From an uncultured Candidatus Saccharibacteria bacterium (lineage in GTDB: Bacteria; Patescibacteriota; Doudnabacteria; UBA920): a DNA stretch of 64,000 bases. The notes below the pieces were generated by a model that was not told where the DNA came from, made no database searches, and saw nothing but the letters and a program-made list of their open reading frames with translations. Numbering within the stretch: the stretch's first letter is position 1; every line of letters begins with the position of its first letter. A program made the position numbers and the translations under genes. Where the stretch lies: NCBI GenBank assembly GCA_964532425.1, contig CAZHIA010000005.1, forward strand, positions 2,772 to 66,771, in the 5' to 3' direction. Shown one piece after another: positions 4,089 through 60,949 of the stretch.

Positions 4089-4880
4089 TTACTGCCAGAT
4101 GTGGCGCTGCGGTGCGGGTATTGCGGCGGCAGGCTTGCGATCGTCCTTTTTATTAAACAGCAGGATCGAACCCTTACCAGCGTGTTCGGGCAGAATGCGT
4201 TCTGCCAAAAGCCAGGTGCGGATGGTCTTGAGTTGCTCGGCGTTCAGGGATTTCTTGCTAACCAGCTCAAACAGCGTCGGACGGTCGCCCCAGCGGACAA
4301 TAACCGTGCGACCGAGCTGGTGGTCAAAGAAAGAGCGGAACACCTCGTGCGGATCATGCTTCACGTACCGCAGATGGTACCAATGACCATCGATCTTTTC
4401 GATCGTCTCGGTTTCAGACAGCTGGATCTTGGAGATCGACTGATTGAGGTGCAGATTCTGGTAATACTTCGTCGTGCGGTCGCGGTGCCGGCGCTGCAGG
4501 ATGCCGTTGTCATCGACAAAGAAGCTGCGCCACCGGTCGAAACCGTCAAAGTCCACCAGGTAATTCATCAGGTGGTCGTGAATGAGGTGGTAACCGCGCG
4601 ACGACCGGGAATCAACATGGTTGCAAATTTCCGCAAACACATCGTCCCACGGCTGCCCGACCGAGCGGTCGAGCATGCGATACAGCGGATGGGACCGGCT
4701 GCTCGGATCTTTGTGCATCCGAACTTTGCGGCGGACAACGAAGTTGTTGACATGGCCAACCAAACCGTCGTCAATCGCGAAGCTGTTGTTGGCGCGCAGA
4801 CGCAAAGCAGTTTTGCCGCTCTTTAAAAAACTTCCGCGGCAGGCAGTATTAACGATCACGCGGTCCATATCAGGCCGCAT
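4089..4880 (-). CDS. hypothetical protein (263 aa)
   Basis: Minus-strand ORF with GC3-rich codon usage like flanking genes. Preferred over the overlapping plus-strand ORF 3996-4826. Confidence 0.45.
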   Translation of the reverse strand: MRPDMDRVIVNTACRGSFLKSGKTALRLRANNSFAIDDGLVGHVNNFVVRRKVRMHKDPSSRSHPLYRMLDRSVGQPWDDVFAEICNHVDSRSSRGYHLIHDHLMNYLVDFDGFDRWRSFFVDDNGILQRRHRDRTTKYYQNLHLNQSISKIQLSETETIEKIDGHWYHLRYVKHDPHEVFRSFFDHQLGRTVIVRWGDRPTLFELVSKKSLNAEQLKTIRTWLLAERILPEHAGKGSILLFNKKDDRKPAAAIPAPQRHIWQ

Positions 4881-5030
4881 ATATTGTAGTGTCCTCCTTG
4901 AGGAGATCAGTCAAAGTATCAATACGTCGATGTATTGGAACAATGGCCGCATGGCATTCTCATGCCACTACTTAAACCATCAAATAGATTGAAGGCTTGA
5001 GCAGCGGTATGATGAACTGTGCTGTTCCGT

Positions 5031-5132
5031 GTCATTGCGAGGTCGAGAAATTTTGTGGTATAAATTTCTCGAGTGAAGCAATCTATTTCAAGGTAAGATT
5101 GCCGCGTCCGCCGGAGGCGGACTCGCAATGAC
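5031..5132. repeat. structured element A (GTCATTGCGA...TCGCAATGAC termini), candidate ncRNA or MITE. Paralogue at 10287-10392
   Basis: 10-bp terminal inverted repeats identical to element B. Internal hairpins CGAGAAATTT/AAATTTCTCG and GTCCGCC-GGA-GGCGGAC. Shared internal word TGAAGCAATCT. Confidence 0.55.
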
Positions 5133-5188
5133 AGCATACACTCCCCTCACTCAAATGCCGATTACCACTTAAGTGAGGGCGCCAATGG

Positions 5189-5447
5189 TTATTGGCGCAA
5201 GATAACTGCTTTGAGGCGCGAGCGTGGCTGGGCCGGTCGCGGTTCGTACGTGGCGACCGCGGTAAAGCCCAGGGCGACCGGGATGGCCAGGAACGGTATG
5301 GCTAGCAGCTGCCACAGCGGCGTGCTGGTGATCTGGCTCAGCTGCGTGAGTGCACCGTACCGGAATTCCAGGTAAAAGGTCATGCCGGCGAGGCCCAGGG
5401 TCACGAACGTCATCACGACGCCGAAGATCAGTTTGAGAGTTTTCATA
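5189..5447 (-). CDS. small membrane protein (85 aa, 2 predicted TM helices)
   Basis: AAGGAGG 8 nt before comp. ATG 5447. The ORF-track start at 5626 is unlikely. Confidence 0.5.
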
Positions 5448-5462
5448 GTGATGTCCTCCTTA

Positions 5463-5657
5463 TCAGTTTTGGTTGTCAAGCATGTCCAATGAACAGCCGT
5501 AGTAGTCGCGTTCGTTTTGATGCGGATTGCACTTGCTTGCAACTCCGAACCAGATGTCTTCTCCGCCGAACTTCCGGTACAAGGCTTCTTTGTTTTCGCT
5601 TTCGACGATGCGGTCGCGCTCGTCAAGCGTTCTCAGTAAGTTTTTGGATTGCGGCAT
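5463..5657 (-). CDS. hypothetical small protein (64 aa)
   Basis: GAGGAGG 4 nt before comp. ATG 5657. Translationally adjacent to the downstream membrane-protein ORF. Confidence 0.5.
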   Translation of the reverse strand: MPQSKNLLRTLDERDRIVESENKEALYRKFGGEDIWFGVASKCNPHQNERDYYGCSLDMLDNQN

Positions 5658-6122
5658 GAGTCCTCCTCAGAATCCGTTTTCTGAAATGGGCTCTGAGGAA
5701 GAGATGATTTTCATCATCTCGGGTTTTGGCCTGTTCGGCCATTATGTACCCTCCTTACTCTTTTTTGTTATTACCGTACCAAGGCAGATGCCCTGCTGCT
5801 CCCATGGAGTCGTAGACTCTGTCACAAATCCAGTCCCAGACCCAGACGAGTCCTCCCCTGCAGTCGCAGACTCAGCCCTTTTAGGGTAAAGTTGCGGGGA
5901 GTACTCCGAGAATATGGCTTGGTTTGTGAAAACCAAATCATTCCAAGAATTATCTTGAATATGTATGGTCATGGCAGCAGGCAGGTGCCGCGGCACGCGA
6001 GAAGAGGTCTCAGTGGTGCTGCTATCGATCGCTCTTCAAGCGCGCCGGGCTGCATCTGTCTCAGTGCGGCCCGCAAGCCTGAACCGTGTAACTTCCACAG
6101 CCCAAGCCTGCGGAAAGTCCGC

Positions 6123-7149
6123 TTACTCCACGCGCACGCGCAGGGCTGCAAGTTCTTGCAGGGCCTGCTGGCGCAGTGTTTCGGCGGAAGACCGAAGTTG
6201 CTCCTGGTCGCGGGCGTACTGCTTCAAAGCTGTCTGGTGGTTAGCCAGCAGCTCGTCCACAGCAGCCTGGTGCGAGGCATACGCGAGTTGGTACTCGCCG
6301 AATGCCTGCTGGTACGAACGCTCCTGTTCCAGGTTGTAAGCCCGTACGGCGTCCTTGACCTGCTTCTTCAGCCCGTTCAGCTGCTTCTGCAGGTCATTGT
6401 ACTCAGCTTGAAGCGCGTTACGCTGCTCGGCGAAACCCACCAGCTCTTCGGCGGAGTACGCCTTCTCCCACCGGGTCACGACGACACCGGTCTGAGTCAT
6501 TTGCTCACCGCCTTTCGGCAGCGGACGAATGAGCTCGCGGAAGAGGCTCCCCTGCTCGGAGAGCAACTTGCCGATTGCAGCGGCGCGGGCGTTCAGTTCG
6601 TTCGCCTTTTTCCAGAAAGCGAAATCGAACTGCGCGAGAACCGCCGGCTTCAGGTTCGCTATCATCTCGTCGATGTTCGCGATGTCCATGAAGCGATCAG
6701 TTTCGCAGACCGTGGCAAGAGCGGGTCGCTCGGGCAGCTGCGGCGGTTCCGGAAGCTTGGGTCGCTCGGGCGCGTTCGACAGCTGCGGCGATAAGAACCT
6801 TCGCAGGTCCATCGACTCCAGCTCCTGTTGCAGGCGTTTGTACAACTTCACACCGTGCATCAGAACAGCCGTGACCGCGTTGCGCTCCGCCACCCCCGCA
6901 TACCCTTTCAGGTCTTCGGGCGTGACTTTCGGGCCGTCAATAGTCTGCGGTGTAGAGTTGCCAGCGCCAACGAACGACAGAACCTTGCGGAACACGCCGG
7001 CAACCGCATCGGTAATGCGGCCCCAGAACTCGTCGTTCTGCTGCTTGGCTTCGGCTTGACGGCGAGCGACCTCGGAGATCGACACACCACCGTTGTTGGT
7101 AAAGAACGTCGGCACCTGAGTGCCGAAAATCATGGTGAGTTTTTCCATG
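6123..7149 (-). CDS. hypothetical protein with C-terminal coiled-coil region (341 aa)
   Basis: SD GAGGGGG before comp. ATG 7149 (MEKLTMIFGTQ...). The C-terminal 130 aa is rich in Q/E/A/L heptads. Adjacent to rsr. Confidence 0.55.
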
Positions 7150-7506
7150 GTTTCCCCCTCTAAAACCATGATAAGTTCATGGCTTGAGAGGAGGAGAGAT
7201 GAAAATAATCATCTCTGCTGATTGCAATCAAAGTTGATTGCTTTCATCTTCCCTCCTTTTCGTTTTTAACAACTGGTGTGCGACCAGTATCACCCCGAGT
7301 TTAATGTCCCGCAGGCTCCCTGGACACTCCCCTTTAATTTGTCACTGATCCGGAACGGATCCCCGAGTACGCAGGACGCGTACTCGGGAGGCTTTCGGTC
7401 TTTTATAGCCCAGTGCTCCCGCCCTTTCTCCGCCGAGTGGCGGACGAAAGAGCGGGATTCGCGCAGTCAGACAGGGGCCCCGAAGAATTCGGGGCGGGCG
7501 GCGAAT

Positions 7507-9249
7507 TTAGGATTCGTCGCCCATCTGCGCGTCGCTGACGGCTTGCCCCGGCACCTCTAAAGGTGCCTGGGTCTGCCGGTCCTCTCGTGCCGCAAGTTGC
7601 ATCCTGCTAATCTCCCGAACTTGGCTTGCGCCGCCTTCGAGCATCAACGGAATGTACTTAACGACCGAGTCGCTCCATCCGTAGATGAAGTGAACGCCCG
7701 GTTCGCCGAACGGTGCAACAGCCGCTTTGTACGGCGCGATGGTCACCAGGAACGCTTGCGCGTCCTGGTTCACTTCGCGCTTGTACTGGCGCCATTGATC
7801 GAGGAATGAACCAGAGCAATCGTAATCGCTCTGGCCATACGCCCAATCAACGTTGTCGGTGATGCCGATGAACGCATCCACGCGAACCTTACGTTCGCGC
7901 AAATACTGGATCGGCGCCCCGACAGCCGTGCTGCCACCGCAGTACCCAGCAAGTCGTTGCGTGACGGACATAATGTCGTCACGCTTCGACAGGCCATGGT
8001 CCGGGTGAACCCATCCGTCGAACGGGAGCAGGACAGCCCGATTCTCGATGCGCCGCAATAGTGCGCCGGAAAGGATACCACAGATATCGATGTAACGCGC
8101 AGTCCCCTTTTGGGAGACCCGCGAACTCATCGAGCCCGAGACATCAGATCCGATCGCAACCGTGCGGCTGCCGAAAGACGGCATGCAGGCAAAGGAAAGG
8201 TTCAGCGCTTCGCGGAGAGCATCCGCAATGCGGCTGTCCGGTTCCCAGTTGCCCGCGTGCACAGGTAGCTCGTCGTCAAACAGGGAATCAAATTCATTCC
8301 CTGCGCCGGACGAGTACTTCTTCCAGGCATCGAAAAACCGGAACGGCAGAACCTTCGAACGCTCGACCGCCTGAGGTGAGGTGAGCTTTTCCACCGCCAC
8401 CGCTACACTCTTCTCGTCCGCGAATACTCCATGGCGCGTAAACGCCGCGAGCATGCGCAGGAGATTCATGTACGGGGCTTGGCGAAGCAGCTCTTCCCAG
8501 ATCCTCAACGTCATCCGCTTCATTGCGGGAGCGACGACTTCGTACGGCAACCGGCCATCCTGAATCAGGGTGGCGGCTTCGTACTCAGTTGTCGCCCGCT
8601 TTAAAGCTTCGAACGCGCGGATCTGCGGGTTCAGTGCGGGATCGCTCCCGAGCGCATTCCCCCTTCGTACCAGCCAGTCGAGACGCTCGGCGACCGCGGC
8701 CGTTGCAGGGCGCGGGTGGGTCATGCGAATGAGATCGCGGAGTACGATGCCCTTGGACCGCTTGGATCCGTACTTCAGGGCATGGTATTCCGAGATGTTC
8801 GCAAGCCACCGTGCCACCGCTTTGGCAGCGTAACCGCCGAGGCCACGTTTGCCGGGGATCTGGCCCGAGATCAGGAAAGTTGAAAACTTTCGCAGATCGT
8901 CAGGAAGCAGAACCACGCGGTCGAACGCAGCTTCGAAAGCCTCGCGGGTTTTCCCGCGGCCGGCTGCGAGCAAGGCCAGCGCCTTGACGTTCTGATCCTT
9001 AATGAGCCCCTTGGTGCGGCCGTAGACAACGGCCTTGGCCAGGAACTCCGGATCAGTGTCGCGCGCTCCGATGATCGTCTCCTGCCACTGTTCGTCGAGT
9101 TGACGCTTGGTGGCATAGAACGTATCACCGAAGACACCGACTGTCAGGAGCTGAACTACGCGCTCGCGCAGCGATCGGTTGTAGGCGGGCGCCCCCTCGT
9201 GGTTCACAAGGGACGCCTGGACATTGGCGAGAGTCGAAGTCTGTGTCAT
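7507..9249 (-). CDS. rsr: Ro60/Rsr ortholog (TROVE domain + C-terminal vWA with MIDAS DVSGSMSS)
   Basis: The N-terminus NHEGAPAYNRSLRERVVQLLTVGVFGDTFYATKRQL parallels the Rsr motif NxAGGFVY..RLDRFLILGSEGGTYY. The MIDAS-type motif IGSDVSGSMSS is present. SD AAGGAG before comp. ATG 9249. Confidence 0.82.
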   Translation of the reverse strand: MTQTSTLANVQASLVNHEGAPAYNRSLRERVVQLLTVGVFGDTFYATKRQLDEQWQETIIGARDTDPEFLAKAVVYGRTKGLIKDQNVKALALLAAGRGKTREAFEAAFDRVVLLPDDLRKFSTFLISGQIPGKRGLGGYAAKAVARWLANISEYHALKYGSKRSKGIVLRDLIRMTHPRPATAAVAERLDWLVRRGNALGSDPALNPQIRAFEALKRATTEYEAATLIQDGRLPYEVVAPAMKRMTLRIWEELLRQAPYMNLLRMLAAFTRHGVFADEKSVAVAVEKLTSPQAVERSKVLPFRFFDAWKKYSSGAGNEFDSLFDDELPVHAGNWEPDSRIADALREALNLSFACMPSFGSRTVAIGSDVSGSMSSRVSQKGTARYIDICGILSGALLRRIENRAVLLPFDGWVHPDHGLSKRDDIMSVTQRLAGYCGGSTAVGAPIQYLRERKVRVDAFIGITDNVDWAYGQSDYDCSGSFLDQWRQYKREVNQDAQAFLVTIAPYKAAVAPFGEPGVHFIYGWSDSVVKYIPLMLEGGASQVREISRMQLAAREDRQTQAPLEVPGQAVSDAQMGDES

Positions 9250-9303
9250 CTGAAATCTCCTTTTCTCGATGGGATGTCCGAAGCGCCTTGGGCGCTTGGT
9301 CTT

Positions 9304-9497
9304 CTTGCGGGAAGAGTTTTGTCCAAAATGATAGCGATGTTATACGGCGTCATGCTGAGCCTGCCTGCCGGCAGGCAGGTGCATCCGAAGCATCTCTCTT
9401 ACAAGCGAAGAGATTCTTCGATCGTCCGCTGAAGCGGACTTCCTCAGAATGACGCCTGTATCGTAAACATGTTTTTTAGACAAAACTCTTCCCGCAA
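9304..9497. repeat. MITE-like element with terminal inverted repeats GGCGTCATnCTGAG (core 9346-9456) nested in longer 57-bp imperfect inverted arms
   Basis: Second copy in opposite orientation at 43034-43126 shares the 14-bp terminal repeats and the internal word CCGAAGCATCTCT(CT)TAC. Internal perfect palindrome CCTGCCTGCCGGCAGGCAGG. Confidence 0.65.
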
Positions 9498-10286
9498 TAT
9501 TTCAAAGTGCAAAAGGCTAATAAAAACAGGTATCGCAAAAATGCGTATACCCGATTTACTTTCCTTTACCAGAATCGCTACCTGTATACCGATCCTGATA
9601 AAGGAGGGGTGGCTTTTCGGGCCACCCCACAGGTGTCGCCCCCGATCTTCGGGCAGCGAGTTCCCATGGTTCCTCCTTTTAGGCATGATTGTCTCGAAGT
9701 ACCCCCAACGAGCAGTCCTCCCCCCCGATTTGCACCGGGGATCAATGGACATATTTGCACAAGGCTTGTATTCGTCAATTGGATTGAAGTAGCCTCGTGG
9801 TGTATTCCTCCTCCCGCTTTACTGTTACGGGGATCAACGGATATTGTGCTAGGGGTGGTGTAGCTGTTTGCGGCGGGCCGGACCTCGTAGGCACTTTCCG
9901 GGCGCGTTTCGCCCGGCTCCCCGTCTGGTCCGCAAGGCCGCCCCGCTCTTTCACGAGAGGGACGGCAGACGATGTATTTGTCGAAGTATCCTCGCTTTGC
10001 TGTTCTCGTCCTTCGGTTTCTCTCGAGCTCTCATTCCATCCTCAGAACTTGCCAGCCGCTGCTGGACAAGCCGCCTTAAGATGATTTGATCTCGAAAGAA
10101 ACGGGTGAAGGAGTCAACGAACGAATTCGCAAGGAGTAAAGGCTTCGAGAAATATCCCGCCGCTTTTGCCCCAGGGATTTCAGGTCGGGCCGGATCATCC
10201 GGCTTGCCCTGCCCTGGTTTTACCTGCTCTCGATGAACAGGCGGCTCAGCTCCCTTTCGGGAAAGCTTTTGGGGCATGTTTTGATT

Positions 10287-10392
10287 GTCATTGCGAATCC
10301 AGAAATTTTTAAGCAATAAAATTTCAGGATGAAGCAATCTAAACACCTCAGAGTTGAAGATTGCTTCGTCGGATGCACTCCTCGCAATGACA
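10287..10392. repeat. structured element B, paralogue of element A (5031-5132)
   Basis: Same 10-bp termini GTCATTGCGA/TCGCAATGAC. P1-like stem CCAGAAATTTT/AAAATTTCAGG and an 8-bp GAAGCAAT/ATTGCTTC stem. Additional flanking inverted repeat GAAAGCTTTTGG/CCAAAAGCTTTC. Confidence 0.55.
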
Positions 10393-10995
10393 AAATGTAA
10401 CGTGAACCAAAAGCTTTCCCGAATAATATAGATAGATTGATAAAGATCTTTTTGTTTATTCCTCCCTAAGGCCTACCATAATCGGGTTAATGGCAGGCTT
10501 TGGGCAAGAATAAATGGGCATAATAAAACCGGGATACGGTAATCCTGTTCAGCAATTTGGATTGTCCGTGGTCCCGATTTATAGTTAGCATCTTTTCCAG
10601 TCGCCTGAAGCAGGTAAGGACTCTGGGCTCGCCCCGTTCCCGCCTCTGGCGGGTGCAATAATGCAATAATTGGACGGCTTAACTTTCCTCGGGCTTCAGG
10701 CTGACCGGAACGTGATGTTAATGAATTTTGACAAAGTGCTTTTTGTTTAATTTCAGCTTGCTCGGGTATGCTAGCAGAAAAATAGAGAGTTGTCAAGAGG
10801 TTTTAACAAAAAATTTCCAAAATATAGAAATACCCAATAAACAAGCATAAATTATGACATATATTGTGTTGAAAATAGATATCAAAATGTATGTATTTAA
10901 AGATTTAATGATTGAAAATTTAAAGATTGAGCACTTTCCTTCAACTGCGATTTTAAACCTAATAATCTCAATTTTAAAATATTTGTTAATAGGTA

Positions 10996-11024
10996 TTGAC
11001 AAAATATTGAATCTATGCTAATAT
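10996..11024 (+). promoter_or_regulatory. consensus sigma-70 promoter: TTGACA, 17-bp spacer, TAATAT, preceded by 200-bp AT-rich island
   Basis: TTGACA 10996-11001 and TAATAT 11019-11024. The upstream region 10800-10995 is extremely AT-rich (UP-element-like). Confidence 0.6.
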
Positions 11025-11030
11025 TTGTTC

Positions 11031-11192
11031 AGCTCAGTAAAGCCGGAAATTAGCAGTCTCCGGCCTCGGAAACTCAGATTGCGGTTGAATTCGACGGCAC
11101 AGGAGGTGCTCTTTATGGGTTCTTAAAAGCGGGACGGCCCCGCATCCATCCTTCGCGTTCGATTCGTCGGGCGCGGGGCCGGGATCCCCTTT
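11031..11192 (+). ncRNA. candidate small ncRNA (~160 nt), promoter-to-terminator, no ORF. Possible Y-RNA-like transcript given rsr proximity
   Basis: Starts about 7 nt after -10. Hairpin GCCGGA...TCCGGC. Words GGTTGAATTCGACGG and GCGTTCGATTCG (T-loop-like TTCGATT). Terminal stem CGGCCCCGC/GCGGGGCCG followed by TTTT (11189-11192). Confidence 0.4.
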
Positions 11193-11810
11193 TAAACCTA
11201 TAGAAGCGCCTAAATCAATAAGGAGGTAGAAATATGGGCGGGTTATGAACAACACCGCGTTGGGTTGGTTTATTTTAAAGAGTGTTTGCTGGGGAAATGC
11301 CACCATGGAACGGCTACACACTCCCAGGCGATTACTCGAGAAGTGAACCCAGGAAAGGGTCAGAATGTATATTCGTCGATTTTTTGACCGACTTAGTCGG
11401 TTAGCGAAGAGTACGTAGCCACCCGAAGGGTGGCCATTAACCAATCCACTGATTGTCCGCATGAGAGTCCGGCCGGAAACGCACAAGCATAGCTGCAATT
11501 CCCCCGGACTCTTCTCATATATATTGCTTTGGTGTACTATTTTAGTATAATAGCTTGCGATTGGTATTTTGTAACAGCCGCATTAGGGTGTGGGTCTATG
11601 AAATTCTAAATCTTAATTACGAAATTCTAAACAAATCACAAATCCCAAATTAGAAAATCTCAAACGGAGAGGTTTGGAATTTGAGTTTTGTAATTTGAAA
11701 TTTGTTTAGAATTTAGGATTTCGATATTCGAATTTTCTGACAATATTTTTTGAACATTAAATATTTCCGCGTTTGATCAGCGTTGCTATCGCGTCTGATC
11801 CGCGATCCAT

Positions 11811-41865: not shown

Positions 41866-42990
41866 ATGTCTTTTTCCTGGCAACAACTTAAAGAACCGAT
41901 ATTTGCCCTGGCGCCCATGGAAGACGTGACTGATTGCGCATTTCGGGAAATGTTCGCTCGCTATAGCAAACCCTCCCTGACCCTCCCTTTTGCAAAGGGA
42001 GGGGGTGTTCCAACTCCCCTCTTTTCTAAAGAGGGGCAGGGGGAGTTCGTCATGTTCACGGAGTTCGTGTCCACGGACGGATTGATGCACGAGGAAGGCC
42101 GTAAGAAATTATTGCCGGATTTGGCGTATACGGAAATACAGCGCCCTATCATTGCGCAAATTTGGGGAACCGACCCGGAGAAATTTAGGAAAGTTGCCGA
42201 GTTGATAGTGGAACTGGGATTTGACGGTATTGATATCAATATGGGTTGCCCGCAGGCGAAAGAGATTGGAGTAGGTGCGTGCGCAGCGCTCATTCGCACC
42301 CCGGACCTTGCTGTAAAAATCATCAATGCGACTATTCAAGGTGCCGGTCCCCTGCCGGTTTCGGTTAAGACCCGCCTTGGGTATAGCAAGACAGATGAAA
42401 TGGAAGGCTGGATTTCCAGATTACTGCAAACGGACATCAAAGCACTGACGCTCCATGGCCGTACGAAAAAAGAAATGTCAAAAGTACCAACGCACTGGGA
42501 CAAGATCGCCGAGGCTGTCGAGATCCGTAATCGAGAAAACCCCAATGTGGTCCTTCTCGGCAATGGGGACATCCGTTCTCGCAAGGAAGGATTGCAGCGC
42601 GTAGCTGAGACCGGTGTTGACGGGGTTATGATAGGCCGCGGCGCATTTGGCTGTCCATGGTTTTTTAATCCGAATGTAATCGACCAACCCGTAGTGCAGG
42701 CCCCTGGCCTGCCAATTACAGAATCGTCAGCACAGCAGGCCACGGGCCTGCACTACATTACACCGCGAGAACGCTTACAGATTATGATCGAACATGCTGA
42801 ACTATTTGAGAAAATGTATACCGGCAAAAAACCATTCCAAATCATGCGCAAGCACTTTAAAGCCTACTGTTCCGGTTTTGCCGGCGCAGCCGAACTCCGT
42901 GCTCAGCTCATGGAAACCAGAGATGTTGCTGAGACAAAAACAGTTGTTGCAAATTATTTACAGGCAGAGAAACCCAGACAGGGCACCTGA
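41866..42990 (+). CDS. dus: tRNA-dihydrouridine synthase with ~22-aa in-frame insertion encoded by two palindromic hairpins
   Basis: APMEDVTDCAFR...INMGCP...HGRT are Dus motifs. The insertion SLTLPFAKGGGVPTPLFSKEGQGEF is encoded by CCCTCCCTTTTGCAAAGGGAGGG and CCCCTCTTTTCTAAAGAGGGG. Confidence 0.8.
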   Translation: MSFSWQQLKEPIFALAPMEDVTDCAFREMFARYSKPSLTLPFAKGGGVPTPLFSKEGQGEFVMFTEFVSTDGLMHEEGRKKLLPDLAYTEIQRPIIAQIWGTDPEKFRKVAELIVELGFDGIDINMGCPQAKEIGVGACAALIRTPDLAVKIINATIQGAGPLPVSVKTRLGYSKTDEMEGWISRLLQTDIKALTLHGRTKKEMSKVPTHWDKIAEAVEIRNRENPNVVLLGNGDIRSRKEGLQRVAETGVDGVMIGRGAFGCPWFFNPNVIDQPVVQAPGLPITESSAQQATGLHYITPRERLQIMIEHAELFEKMYTGKKPFQIMRKHFKAYCSGFAGAAELRAQLMETRDVAETKTVVANYLQAEKPRQGT

Positions 42991-43033: not shown

Positions 43034-43126
43034 GGCGTCATTCTGAGTCCTGAGTTCGACGAAGGACGAAGAAACTCATGATCGGTAAGAGATGCTTCGG
43101 TCGTCTGACTCCCTCAGTATGACGCC
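43034..43126. repeat. MITE-like element with terminal inverted repeats GGCGTCATnCTGAG, copy 2 (inverted relative to 9346-9456)
   Basis: Shares the terminal repeats and the internal word GTAAGAGATGCTTCGG (reverse complement of CCGAAGCATCTCTTAC) with copy 1. Confidence 0.65.
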
Positions 43127-60847: not shown

Positions 60848-60949
60848 AAAAATTAGTTCTCTCGCGGATATGCGGATAACACGGACTTCGCGGTCATCGG
60901 CGGTATCTGCGAAGTCCGTGTATCCGTGAGATAACTACTTTACTAAATT

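What the first reader, a model, noticed from the sequence alone, without database searches (positions are those of the whole stretch)
5031..5132. Two paralogous ~100-nt structured elements (A: 5031-5132, B: 10287-10392) on either side of rsr
Both copies begin GTCATTGCGA and end TCGCAATGAC, giving an identical 10-bp terminal stem. Both carry an inner stem built on GAAATTT/AAATTTC with different closing pairs (A CGAG/CTCG, B CCAG/C-GG). Both share the central word TGAAGCAATCT, whose GAAGCAAT can pair with a downstream ATTGCTTC (perfect in B, 5 bp in A). The interior is otherwise diverged, which is the pattern expected for a structured RNA family rather than a recent DNA duplication. B has an extra flanking inverted repeat (GAAAGCTTTTGG…CCAAAAGCTTTC). 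They could be Y-RNA-like partners of Rsr, an unknown cis-regulatory RNA, or a MITE with terminal inverted repeats.
Basis: seen in the sequence. Interest (0 to 1): 0.6.

Follow-up and report, generated by a model that had tools for sequence, protein, structure and literature searches.

The report
Dispersed CGTC-type palindromic repeats, not Y RNAs
The two ~100-nt "structured elements" flanking rsr are real, but they are copies of a very widespread family of small palindromic intergenic DNA repeats (REP-like inverted dimers) found in many bacterial phyla with no link to Rsr, so they are ordinary repeats and not a new Ro-partner RNA.

Summary
A (5031-5132) and B (10287-10391) share exact 10-11-nt termini and the GAAGCAATCT core, and both fold into very stable four-way junctions. 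They are not specific to rsr. The window has two more copies: C (9349-9453) and D (43037-43123, 34 kb away beside a Dus gene). None of 273 element-bearing loci encodes Rsr, and 52 other rsr loci lack this type. Orthologous sites exist with and without the element. There is no target-site duplication and no recurrent neighbouring transposase. The anatomy is a (C/T)GTC tag, a stem opening A-T/T-A, a CCA/CTC tail, and two units inverted with the tags outside. This matches the CGTC-tagged REP superfamily of Di Nocera et al. 2013, arranged as head-head dimers, but the unit stem is only 5 bp. The four-way junction is what such a dimer forms. Better Y-RNA candidates lie between B and C: three modules carry a motif, GGNUACUUC(G/A)A, that recurs upstream of rsr on its strand in 18 of 40 loci. 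Verdict: a member of a known kind of selfish or structural repeat, of low interest.

The parts
5030..5133 (.). Copy A (GCGAG type). It is an inverted dimer, TGTC-ATTGC…GCAAT-CT / AG-ATTGC…GCAAT-GACA, lying 57 nt beyond the stop of the 145-aa ORF 5189-5626(-).
   Evidence: Sequence; exact termini; four-way-junction folds; covariance-model hit of 45 bits (a training member).
10286..10392 (.). Copy B (GCGAG type), in the same orientation as A because the GAAATTT hairpin is on the same side. It lies in the long non-coding stretch between trmB and rsr.
   Evidence: The independent Logan contig L001 ends inside B, as assemblies often do at repeats.
10256..10280 (.). Left arm of the larger inverted repeat in which B is nested.
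   Evidence: Inverted repeat I3, 25-nt arms, 88% complementary; 17-bp outer stem in the fold; flank duplex energy -38.3 kcal/mol.
10399..10423 (.). Right arm of the larger inverted repeat around B.
9348..9454 (.). Copy C (CTGAG type), about 100 nt upstream of the rsr start codon at 9249. It is a heterodimer: unit 1 has ATTCT/AGAAT and unit 2 has ATGCT/AGCAT.
   Evidence: Found by the terminal-motif scan. It has the same four-way junction, -56.7 kcal/mol, z = -5.2. Covariance-model hit of 33.8 bits. Part of it resembles B unit 1 (inverted repeat I6).
9285..9328 (.). One arm of the 44-nt inverted repeat that encloses C.
   Evidence: Inverted repeat I2, 80% complementary; flank duplex energy -33.9 kcal/mol.
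9474..9517 (.). The other arm of the inverted repeat that encloses C.
43036..43124 (.). Copy D (CTGAG type), 34 kb from rsr. It lies 46 nt after the stop of a dihydrouridine synthase gene (41866-42990 +), between convergent ORFs.
   Evidence: (34.7 bits); flank duplex energy -28.6 kcal/mol.

Best explanation
A and B, with C and D, are copies of a dispersed non-coding DNA repeat. Each copy is made of two REP-like units in inverted orientation with their (C/T)GTC tags on the outside. Each unit reads (C/T)GTC-ATTGC-[variable, often hairpin-forming insert]-GCAAT-C(C/T)N. Because the two units are inverted, the outer 11 nt of one unit pair with the outer 11 nt of the other (first stem), and the two GAAGCAATC segments pair with each other (second stem). 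The family belongs with, or next to, the CGTC-tagged REP superfamily. It is gained and lost at intergenic sites, has no known dedicated transposase, and is found from Proteobacteria to Patescibacteria. Shown here: the family's size and breadth, insertion polymorphism, absence of target-site duplications, absence of any link to rsr, and the unit/dimer anatomy. Inferred: that it spreads as selfish DNA, probably through single-stranded hairpin intermediates handled by a trans-acting enzyme. Also inferred: that, when transcribed, it merely forms a stable stem-loop that may stabilise or punctuate transcripts such as the rsr leader that contains B and C.
For: Family size and breadth. One Novosphingobium megaplasmid has at least 40 places.

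Mobility. L077/L098 carry a copy where L062 has none. L021/L033 carry one where L056, L040, L141 and L128 have none.

Not a classical MITE, and no partner gene. 148 of 169 copies have no adjacent direct repeat. Neighbouring genes are unrelated housekeeping or phage structural genes, with no recurrent transposase.

Anatomy. The tag base is C in 66% and T in 29% of 302 copies. The tail is CCA in 48% and CTC in 22%. Median unit length is 29 nt and median dimer length 84 nt. Compensatory changes occur at the flank pair (C-G 44, U-A 17) and in the extension of the second stem. Solo units and tandem arrays exist. In C each unit's local 5-bp stem is perfect (ATTCT/AGAAT, ATGCT/AGCAT) while both long-range stems carry a mismatch (sequence). 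Side hairpins of unrelated sequence recur at the same two positions across phyla.

Match to the literature. The definition of CGTC REPs in PMC3733652 fits these features.

No link to rsr. There is no Rsr homologue in 273 element-bearing loci, 2.24 Mb. There is no GCGAG or CTGAG copy in 52 other rsr loci, 414 kb. Copy D lies beside unrelated genes.
Against: Three of the four window copies lie within 5.4 kb around rsr. Once only non-coding DNA is counted this gives p of about 0.07, post hoc (plus my arithmetic), so a local role is not excluded. A single GCGAG-type unit folds weakly (-2.7 kcal/mol, no better than shuffles), so the 8-9-bp unit stem that defines the published CGTC families is not met. 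No mobilising enzyme was identified. The exact insertion junctions could not be resolved, because the with/without pairs are only 70-80% identical. No expression data are available. No match was found in 50,697 GenBank phage records (sensitivity was limited for this short query), so the 'viral' contigs may largely be prophage or GTA-like regions.
Confidence: 0.82

Rival explanations
1. A, B and C are Y-RNA-like non-coding RNAs that bind Rsr (Ro60), with the terminal stem acting as the Ro-binding helix and the three arms as an effector or tRNA-like module.
For: They lie within 4 kb of rsr, which is the location criterion of Chen et al. 2014 (PMC4201824). They are 100-110 nt long, with a long stem formed by the 5' and 3' ends and a multi-arm interior. 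B and D contain GACGAAG, which fits the short GNCGAAN0-1G motif (sequence). Rfam's silence is uninformative, because Rfam 15 also gives no Y-RNA hit at a locus with a canonical YrlA-like layout.
Against: The terminal stem is a perfect helix with no bulge. A and C lack GNCGAAG. There are no D-arm or T-arm sequences, and no tRNA-like hit. The same element occurs hundreds of times in loci with no Rsr gene, and copy D lies 34 kb away. It is absent from 52 other rsr loci, including the syntenic L002. A different motif, GGNUACUUC(G/A)A, is the one truly linked to rsr. It gives 29 same-strand hits in 18 of 40 loci, 0 on the opposite strand, and 7 in the other 619 kb. It is present three times between B and C and is absent from A-D.
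Confidence: 0.04
2. B and C have been co-opted as cis-acting RNA structures within the rsr / Y-RNA transcription unit. They might act as processing sites, 3'-end protectors for the upstream small RNAs, or a leader structure controlling rsr. A might act as the operon's distal stem-loop.
For: A strong promoter-like site (TTGACA-17-TAGCAT, 10796-10768, minus strand) is conserved with L002. It would drive a transcript running through B, the three Y-like modules, C and rsr. C ends about 100 nt before the rsr start codon and sits at the apex of a 44-nt-arm inverted repeat. REPs are reported to lie mostly downstream of ORFs and to act as RNA hairpins (PMC3733652). Copies A and D each lie about 50 nt after a stop codon.
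Against: There is no conservation of B or C in any other rsr locus. L002 has the same promoter and the same trmB-prfA-prmC synteny without them. The clustering near rsr is not significant once restricted to non-coding DNA. Any effect would be a by-product of insertion and not a conserved function.
Confidence: 0.1
3. They are classical MITEs: deletion derivatives of an insertion sequence, moved by cut-and-paste by a transposase that recognises the terminal inverted repeats.
For: They have perfect 10-11-bp terminal inverted repeats, a small size, many dispersed copies and insertion polymorphism.
Against: There are no target-site duplications. No longer element with the same ends enclosing a transposase turned up among 275 loci. 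Solo half-units and tandem arrays of the terminal motif exist, which suits unit-based REPs and not TIR-bounded transposons. The terminal sequence is conserved exactly across at least 8 phyla, which is unlike IS-derived MITEs.
Confidence: 0.04

Closest known systems
CGTC-tagged REPs organised as head-head dimers (Di Nocera, De Gregorio & Rocco 2013, BMC Genomics 14:522; includes Rickettsia RPE-4/-6 and Neisseria dRS3)
   Same: Both have an unpaired CGTC/TGTC tag at the outer end and a stem that opens with A-T then T-A. Both have a 3-nt tail (CCA in half of the copies here). Both form predominantly inverted dimers with tags outside, a spacer of about 15-30 nt with complementary ends, and the ability to fold as one large stem-loop. 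Both are dispersed and mostly intergenic or just downstream of ORFs, have no associated transposase, and occur in several phyla. The outer stem ATTGC/GCAAT is shared with CGTC-3, as back-translated from the intragenic peptide VIAGLDPAIH in their Additional file 3.
   Different: The published families have 8-9-bp unit stems and 4-5-nt loops. Here the unit stem is 5 bp, followed by a GAG/GAA internal loop and a variable insert. That insert is often a GCGNAGC mini-hairpin (54% of copies) or a longer hairpin. A lone unit is not stable. I could not see their Figure 2, so I cannot say whether the GTCATTGCGAG type was catalogued. The phyla seen here (Patescibacteria, Chloroflexota, Planctomycetota, Desulfobacterota, Ignavibacteriota) go beyond their five for CGTC repeats.
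REPINs / BIMEs (GTAG-tagged REP doublets mobilised by RAYT tyrosine transposases)
   Same: Both consist of two inverted short palindromic units forming a long hairpin. Both lack target-site duplications, occur in many intergenic copies with singletons and clusters, and are presumed to have a single-stranded DNA hairpin substrate.
   Different: The tag is CGTC, not GTAG. No flanked RAYT gene was seen. REPIN sequences are lineage-specific, whereas this one is identical across phyla.
Bacterial Y RNAs (Yrn1/YrlA/YrlB; Chen et al. 2014, RNA 20:1715)
   Same: Both are about 100 nt, have a stem formed by the two ends and a multi-arm interior, and lie within 4 kb of rsr.
   Different: The elements here have no bulged Ro-binding helix and no D/T-arm mimicry. 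They are not conserved with rsr, are abundant in loci without rsr, and are symmetric on both strands.
ERIC/IRU and Correia-type palindromic MITEs
   Same: Both are imperfect palindromes of about 100 bp in intergenic DNA that are co-transcribed and form RNA hairpins.
   Different: Those families are restricted to a genus or family, and Correia elements have TA duplications and IS-like ends. This family shows neither.

Membership tests
CGTC-tagged REP superfamily (Di Nocera et al. 2013) | Unpaired terminal tetranucleotide CGTC (variants TGTC, CCTC) at one end of each unit | tested here: met
   A and B have TGTC…GACA. C and D have CGTC…GACG. Across 302 copies the tag base is C in 199 and T in 88.
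CGTC-tagged REP superfamily (Di Nocera et al. 2013) | Stem opens with complementary A-T and T-A at positions 1 and 2 | tested here: met
   The pairs are ATTGC…GCAAT (A, B), ATTCT…AGAAT and ATGCT…AGCAT (C), and ATTCT…AGAAA and ATACT…AGCAT (D; 4 of 5 pairs each).
CGTC-tagged REP superfamily (Di Nocera et al. 2013) | Unit stem of 8-9 bp with a loop of 4-5 nt | tested here: not met
   The unit stem is 5 bp and the interior is 12-45 nt. The canonical unit folds at -2.7 kcal/mol with z = 0.0, against -10.9 kcal/mol for a CGTC-3 unit.
CGTC-tagged REP superfamily (Di Nocera et al. 2013) | Short unpaired 3-nt tail, consensus CCA | tested here: inconclusive
   Family-wide the tail is CCA in 144 of 302 copies, CTC in 66, CCC in 22 and CTT in 15. 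The window copies have CTT (A, B) and CTC (C, D). In the dimer the tail pairs with its partner.
CGTC-tagged REP superfamily (Di Nocera et al. 2013) | Predominantly head-head dimers (tags outside), able to fold into one large stem-loop | tested here: met
   All four window copies, and by the design of the search all retrieved copies, have this arrangement. Solo units also exist.
CGTC-tagged REP superfamily (Di Nocera et al. 2013) | Dispersed multi-copy family with no flanking transposase gene | tested here: met
   Searches show copy number and breadth. Neighbour clustering found no recurrent transposase.
Bacterial Y RNA (YrlA/Yrn) | Encoded within about 4 kb of rsr on the same strand | tested here: inconclusive
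   A, B and C lie within 2.4 kb of rsr. The element is near-palindromic and scores alike on both strands. D lies 34 kb away.
Bacterial Y RNA (YrlA/Yrn) | GNCGAAN0-1G / GGUCCGA-like Ro-binding motif in the 5' strand of a bulged terminal helix | tested here: not met
   The terminal helix is perfect and has no bulge. GACGAAG occurs only in B and D, and there it lies in the inner stem.
Bacterial Y RNA (YrlA/Yrn) | tRNA-like module (D-arm and T-arm mimicry) | tested here: not met
   ARAGORN finds nothing in the window. There are no tRNA or other Rfam matches at the elements. There is no GGUUCGAAUCC-like sequence.
Bacterial Y RNA (YrlA/Yrn) | Co-conservation with rsr in related genomes | tested here: not met
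   0 of 52 other rsr loci carry this type, and 273 element-bearing loci have no Rsr gene.
Bacterial Y RNA (YrlA/Yrn) | Physical association with Rsr protein | not testable with these tools
   This requires RIP or CLIP.
MITE (IS-derived) | Target-site duplication flanking terminal inverted repeats | tested here: not met
   148 of 169 copies have no adjacent direct repeat, and the rest have 1-5 nt, as expected by chance.
MITE (IS-derived) | A parent insertion sequence with the same ends | tested here: inconclusive
   None was seen among 275 loci. Whole genomes could not be scanned.
REPIN / RAYT system | GTAG head and a cognate RAYT gene flanked by the repeats | tested here: not met
   The head is CGTC/TGTC. 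No Y1-transposase cluster was found among neighbours. Di Nocera et al. also report none for CGTC repeats.

The most novel reading that the evidence does not exclude
The GTCATTGCGAG…GAAGCAATC elements could be a distinct family that spreads horizontally across at least 8 bacterial phyla and into predicted viral contigs. It would propagate without a dedicated transposase by inserting at the apex of pre-existing hairpins. B, C and D are all nested in larger inverted repeats, and the family shows a weak but significant excess of complementary flanks. In this Patescibacteria-like genome the copies inside the rsr leader could have become functional parts of the Y-RNA/rsr transcript, for example as structured decoys or substrates for the Rsr-exonuclease machinery.
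Probability: 0.08. Interest if true: 0.6.

Novelty: new member of a known kind. Interest (0 to 1): 0.25.

Why it matters
For the scan, this removes a false lead. The cloverleaf-like elements beside rsr are generic repeats, and the more plausible Ro-partner RNAs in this locus are the three GGNUACUUC(G/A)A-bearing modules between B and C. More generally, it shows that one REP-like sequence with 22 invariant terminal nucleotides is shared by Proteobacteria, Bacteroidota, Chloroflexota, Planctomycetota, Patescibacteria and others. It is absent from Rfam and gives rise to spurious ORFs of the kind seen among the neighbouring ORFs (…LDCFASLAMT…, …LLRFARNDE…). How CGTC-type repeats move without a dedicated transposase remains an open, though minor, question in bacterial genome biology.

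Tried and rejected
- **Rfam.** Scans at gathering and at permissive thresholds, on the window and on canonical copies, found no family. The only hits were spurious miRNA models on unrelated hairpins.
- **Literature.** Searches for the nucleotide strings and for the spurious peptides found only primers and noise. The relevant paper was found by concept terms.
- **23S-IVS lead.** From memory I suspected the repeats flank '23S rRNA intervening-sequence / four-helix-bundle' genes. Neighbour clustering showed no such family.
- **RAYT/transposase partner.** Nothing recurrent was found. A small Zn-finger/HTH ORF sits inside or beside copies in 9 viral loci, but it looks like an ordinary phage gene and was not pursued.
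- **Target-site duplications.** None were found. Four with/without pairs were aligned, but they are too diverged to place the junctions exactly.
- **Mobile-island idea.** The region between A and B is GC-rich, which suggested a mobile island. I rejected this because the prmC-prfA-trmB-rsr synteny is shared with L002 and other relatives.
- **Clustering near rsr.** Three of four copies lie near rsr. Restricted to non-coding DNA this is not significant (p about 0.07).
- **Conserved block 10600-10760.** I tested whether it occurs in more rsr loci. It is shared only with L002.
- **Access limits.** The contigs of the two closest Rsr homologues, P0002 and P0004, returned no DNA. GenBank phage records gave no match. 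The organism's name was not recoverable.

Full report
**1. The observation**

Copy A (5031-5132) and copy B (10287-10391) both begin GTCATTGCGA and end TCGCAATGAC. These are the only four exact occurrences of that 10-mer or its complement in the window. About 0.12 are expected by chance (my arithmetic). Both carry GAAGCAATCT.

Folded as RNA, either strand gives a 10-11-bp closing stem and three hairpins. Energies are -41.5 to -47.4 kcal/mol, z-scores are -6.4 to -10.1, and no shuffle out of 200 folds as well. DNA parameters give the same architecture. The inverted repeat flanking B is real.

Small corrections apply. The core of B ends at 10391. The second stem of A has 7 contiguous pairs, not 5.

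rsr is the ORF 7507-9249 on the minus strand, with TROVE and Ro60 vWA domains.

**2. More copies in the window**

Reading the minus strand upstream of rsr revealed a third element, C (9349-9453). It begins GTCATTCTGAG and ends CTCAGCATGAC, and it folds into the same four-way junction. A scan for GTCAT…ATGAC pairs found a fourth, D, at 43037-43123. D lies 46 nt after the stop codon of a dihydrouridine synthase gene, near dnaB.

A covariance model built from 69 outside copies plus these four, run with filters off, finds only these four in the 64 kb. The next best hit has E = 0.14.

**3. The family outside the window**

N81-110 hits 43 more.
Hits include Bradyrhizobium, Sphingomonadales, Rhodospirillales, Rickettsiales, several Gammaproteobacteria, Burkholderiales, Desulfobacterota, Bacteroidota (Mucilaginibacter, Pedobacter, Flavobacterium), Ignavibacteriota, Planctomycetota, Chloroflexota and Patescibacteria (Parcubacteria, Berkelbacteria).
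- A Novosphingobium resinovorum megaplasmid has at least 40 places.
- Rfam 15 has no matching family, for the window copies or for canonical ones.
- GenBank phage records gave no blastn match (sensitivity was limited for this short query). The IMG/VR hits may therefore be mostly prophage or GTA-like regions, and the neighbouring genes there are terminase, portal and tail genes.

**4. Behaviour as DNA**

- Neighbouring genes are unrelated from locus to locus, and no transposase recurs.
- 148 of 169 copies have no adjacent direct repeat.
- Beyond the 11-mers only one further position is constrained: Y on the left and R on the right. These covary as C-G (44) or U-A (17).
- Solo terminal motifs and tandem arrays occur.
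- Joined flanks of several copies align contiguously to homologous contigs that lack the element. L077/L098 align against L062, and L021/L033 align against L056, L040, L141 and L128. The element is therefore gained or lost at orthologous intergenic sites. The pairs are only 70-80% identical, so exact junctions could not be read.

**5. Anatomy**

The element contains ATTGC twice and GCAAT twice. Each half reads (C/T)GTC-ATTGC-[insert]-GCAAT-C(C/T)N, and the two halves are inverted with the tags outside. Among 302 distinct copies:

- the tag base is C in 66% and T in 29%;
- the tail is CCA in 48% and CTC in 22%;
- the median unit is 29 nt and the median dimer 84 nt;
- 54% carry GCGNAGC between the two stems, and 86% carry a CGNAG core. 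From my own knowledge, GCGNAGC is the sequence of the very stable GNA-loop DNA mini-hairpins.

Copy C is informative. Its two units have different local stems (ATTCT/AGAAT and ATGCT/AGCAT). Each local stem is perfect, while both long-range stems carry one mismatch. Pairing within the unit is therefore maintained as well as pairing across the dimer.

Hairpins of unrelated sequence recur at the same two insert positions in copies from many phyla. The GAAATTT hairpin shared by A and B is found in none of 325 outside copies. A and B are therefore close paralogues within this genome.

The four-way junction is simply what an inverted dimer of such units forms. The outer strands pair with each other (first stem), the inner strands pair with each other (second stem), and each unit's insert becomes a side arm.

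**6. What is known**

Di Nocera, De Gregorio and Rocco (2013, PMC3733652) define CGTC-tagged REPs as follows:

- a terminal CGTC, often TGTC;
- stems of 8-9 bp that almost invariably open with A-T and T-A;
- loops of 4-5 nt;
- a short tail, mostly CCA;
- predominantly head-head dimers able to fold into one large stem-loop;
- presence in five phyla;
- location mostly downstream of ORFs;
- no associated transposase.

Their intragenic examples back-translate to GTCATTCCCGCGAAAGCGGGAAT (SFPRKRES, CGTC-1) and GTCATTGCCGGGCTTGACCCGGCAATCCA (VIAGLDPAIH, CGTC-3). The second shares the ATTGC/GCAAT outer stem with the present family.

The present family meets the tag, A-T opening, dimer, dispersal and no-transposase criteria. 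The tail criterion is met in about half of the copies. The criterion of an 8-9-bp stem with a 4-5-nt loop is not met, and a lone canonical unit is not stable. I therefore place it in or beside the CGTC superfamily as a distinct family. I could not check whether their Figure 2 already lists it.

A cousin of CGTC-2 type (GTCATTCCGGGCTTGACCCGGAA…) lies about 2 kb downstream of rsr in L156/L158.

**7. Is there a link to Rsr?**

- The closest Rsr homologues are 64% identical or less. Several of the named ones are from the Parcubacteria group or Falkowbacteria.
- The locus is syntenic with relatives: prmC-prfA-trmB, a long gene-free gap, then rsr. It is therefore not an island bounded by A and B.
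- L002 has none of the elements.
- Across 52 other rsr loci (414 kb), the motif scan and the covariance model find no GCGAG or CTGAG copy.
- Conversely, 273 element-bearing loci (2.24 Mb) contain no Rsr homologue.
- Three of the four window copies lie near rsr, but that region holds about 28% of the window's non-coding DNA. This gives p of about 0.07, post hoc.

**8. Better Y-RNA candidates**

On the rsr strand between B and C lie three modules: roughly 10072-9975, 9843-9781 and 9752-9690. They end in GAGGAUACUUCGA, GAGGCUACUUCAA and GGGGGUACUUCGA.

The motif GGNUACUUC(G/A)A occurs 29 times in 18 of 40 rsr loci within 1.5 kb upstream of rsr on its strand. It never occurs on the opposite strand there, and it occurs 7 times in the remaining 619 kb.

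In L200 the motif follows a GGTTCGAATCC…GTAGCTCAGTTGGTAGAGC segment. That is the T-arm-then-D-arm layout of YrlA described by Chen et al. 2014. Rfam gives no Y-RNA hit even there, so Rfam's silence says nothing about Y RNAs. Copies A-D lack the motif.

A conserved promoter-like site at 10796-10768 and a block of about 150 nt are shared with L002. This suggests a transcript running through B, the modules, C and rsr. Whether B and C affect that transcript is not known.

**9. Verdict**

The elements are real and structured, but they are ordinary members of a known kind of dispersed palindromic repeat. The mechanism of spread is inferred, not shown. One local peculiarity is that B, C and D each sit at the apex of a larger inverted repeat. 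Their flank duplex energies are -38.3, -33.9 and -28.6 kcal/mol, against a control median of -15.9 with only 3.9% of controls at or below -30. The family-wide excess is weak but significant (p = 2e-4). This hints at a preference for hairpin targets and is the most interesting loose end.

Noticed in passing
window 9690-10072, minus strand (three modules: ~10072-9975, ~9843-9781, ~9752-9690): Three candidate Y-RNA-like modules lie upstream of rsr on its strand, each ending in GGNUACUUC(G/A)A. The motif gives 29 same-strand hits in 18 of 40 rsr loci within 1.5 kb upstream, 0 on the opposite strand, and 7 in the other 619 kb. L002 has two such modules at 5376-5530 and 5672-5780.
   Followed up: partly
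window 10600-10796, minus strand; L002 4945-5140: A promoter-like site (TTGACA-17-TAGCAT with an upstream TG) is followed by a block of about 150 nt that is conserved between the window and L002. The block has a long 5'/3' stem with a single bulged base. It has no Rfam match and was not found in L166 or L178. It is possibly another rsr-linked small RNA.
   Followed up: partly
window 9285-9328 / 9474-9517, 10256-10280 / 10399-10423, and the flanks of 43037-43123: Copies C, B and D each sit at the apex of a larger inverted repeat, with flank duplex energies of -33.9, -38.3 and -28.6 kcal/mol. Among 279 outside copies, 10% have flanks at or below -30 kcal/mol, against 3.9% in mismatched controls. 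This suggests insertion into pre-existing hairpins, or outward growth of palindromes.
   Followed up: partly
L200 ~5500-5660: Upstream of rsr there is a GGTTCGAATCC…GTAGCTCAGTTGGTAGAGC segment (T-arm then D-arm order) followed by GGGUUACUUCGAU. This is a canonical YrlA-like layout, yet Rfam 15 reports nothing there at gathering threshold. L200 and L201 also carry long tRNA gene arrays next to rsr.
   Followed up: no
L126 5880-6240, L142 7150-7420, L154 6080-6680, L147 660-920: Some predicted viral contigs carry tandem arrays of the terminal 11-mer alone, for example CTCGCAATGAC-AGGAGGGGTGCAC repeated with a 24-nt period, or of whole 41-nt units. In L154 a ~110-aa Zn-finger/HTH ORF sits inside the loop of one element, and similar ORFs lie near copies in 9 loci.
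   Followed up: no
L001 (Logan contig SRR11567520_383372), end corresponding to window ~10386: An independent assembly of the same sequence breaks inside copy B, as expected for a repeat present at many places in that metagenome.
   Followed up: no
window 7189-7258, 5700-5720, 11601-11735, 60854-60937: These are other unrelated palindromes. One is a ~70-nt hairpin between rsr and the next ORF; one of its arms (7196-7216) is 86% complementary to 5700-5720, as an inverted repeat. Another is an AT-rich inverted repeat with 49-nt arms next to trmB. A third is an ~84-nt hairpin at 60.9 kb. They drew only spurious miRNA-model hits.
   Followed up: no
L156/L158 9678-9785 and 8662-9014: In this rsr locus a CGTC-2-like REP dimer (GTCATTCCGGGCTTGACCCGGAA…) lies about 2 kb downstream of rsr, next to a tmRNA gene.
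   Followed up: no
window 6123-7169 (-), 5189-5626 (-), 4089-4880 (-), 11034-11498 (-): The ORFs downstream of rsr and in the trmB-rsr gap have no Pfam or NCBIfam match. Those in the 9250-11810 gap overlap the RNA-like features and are probably not genes.
   Followed up: partly
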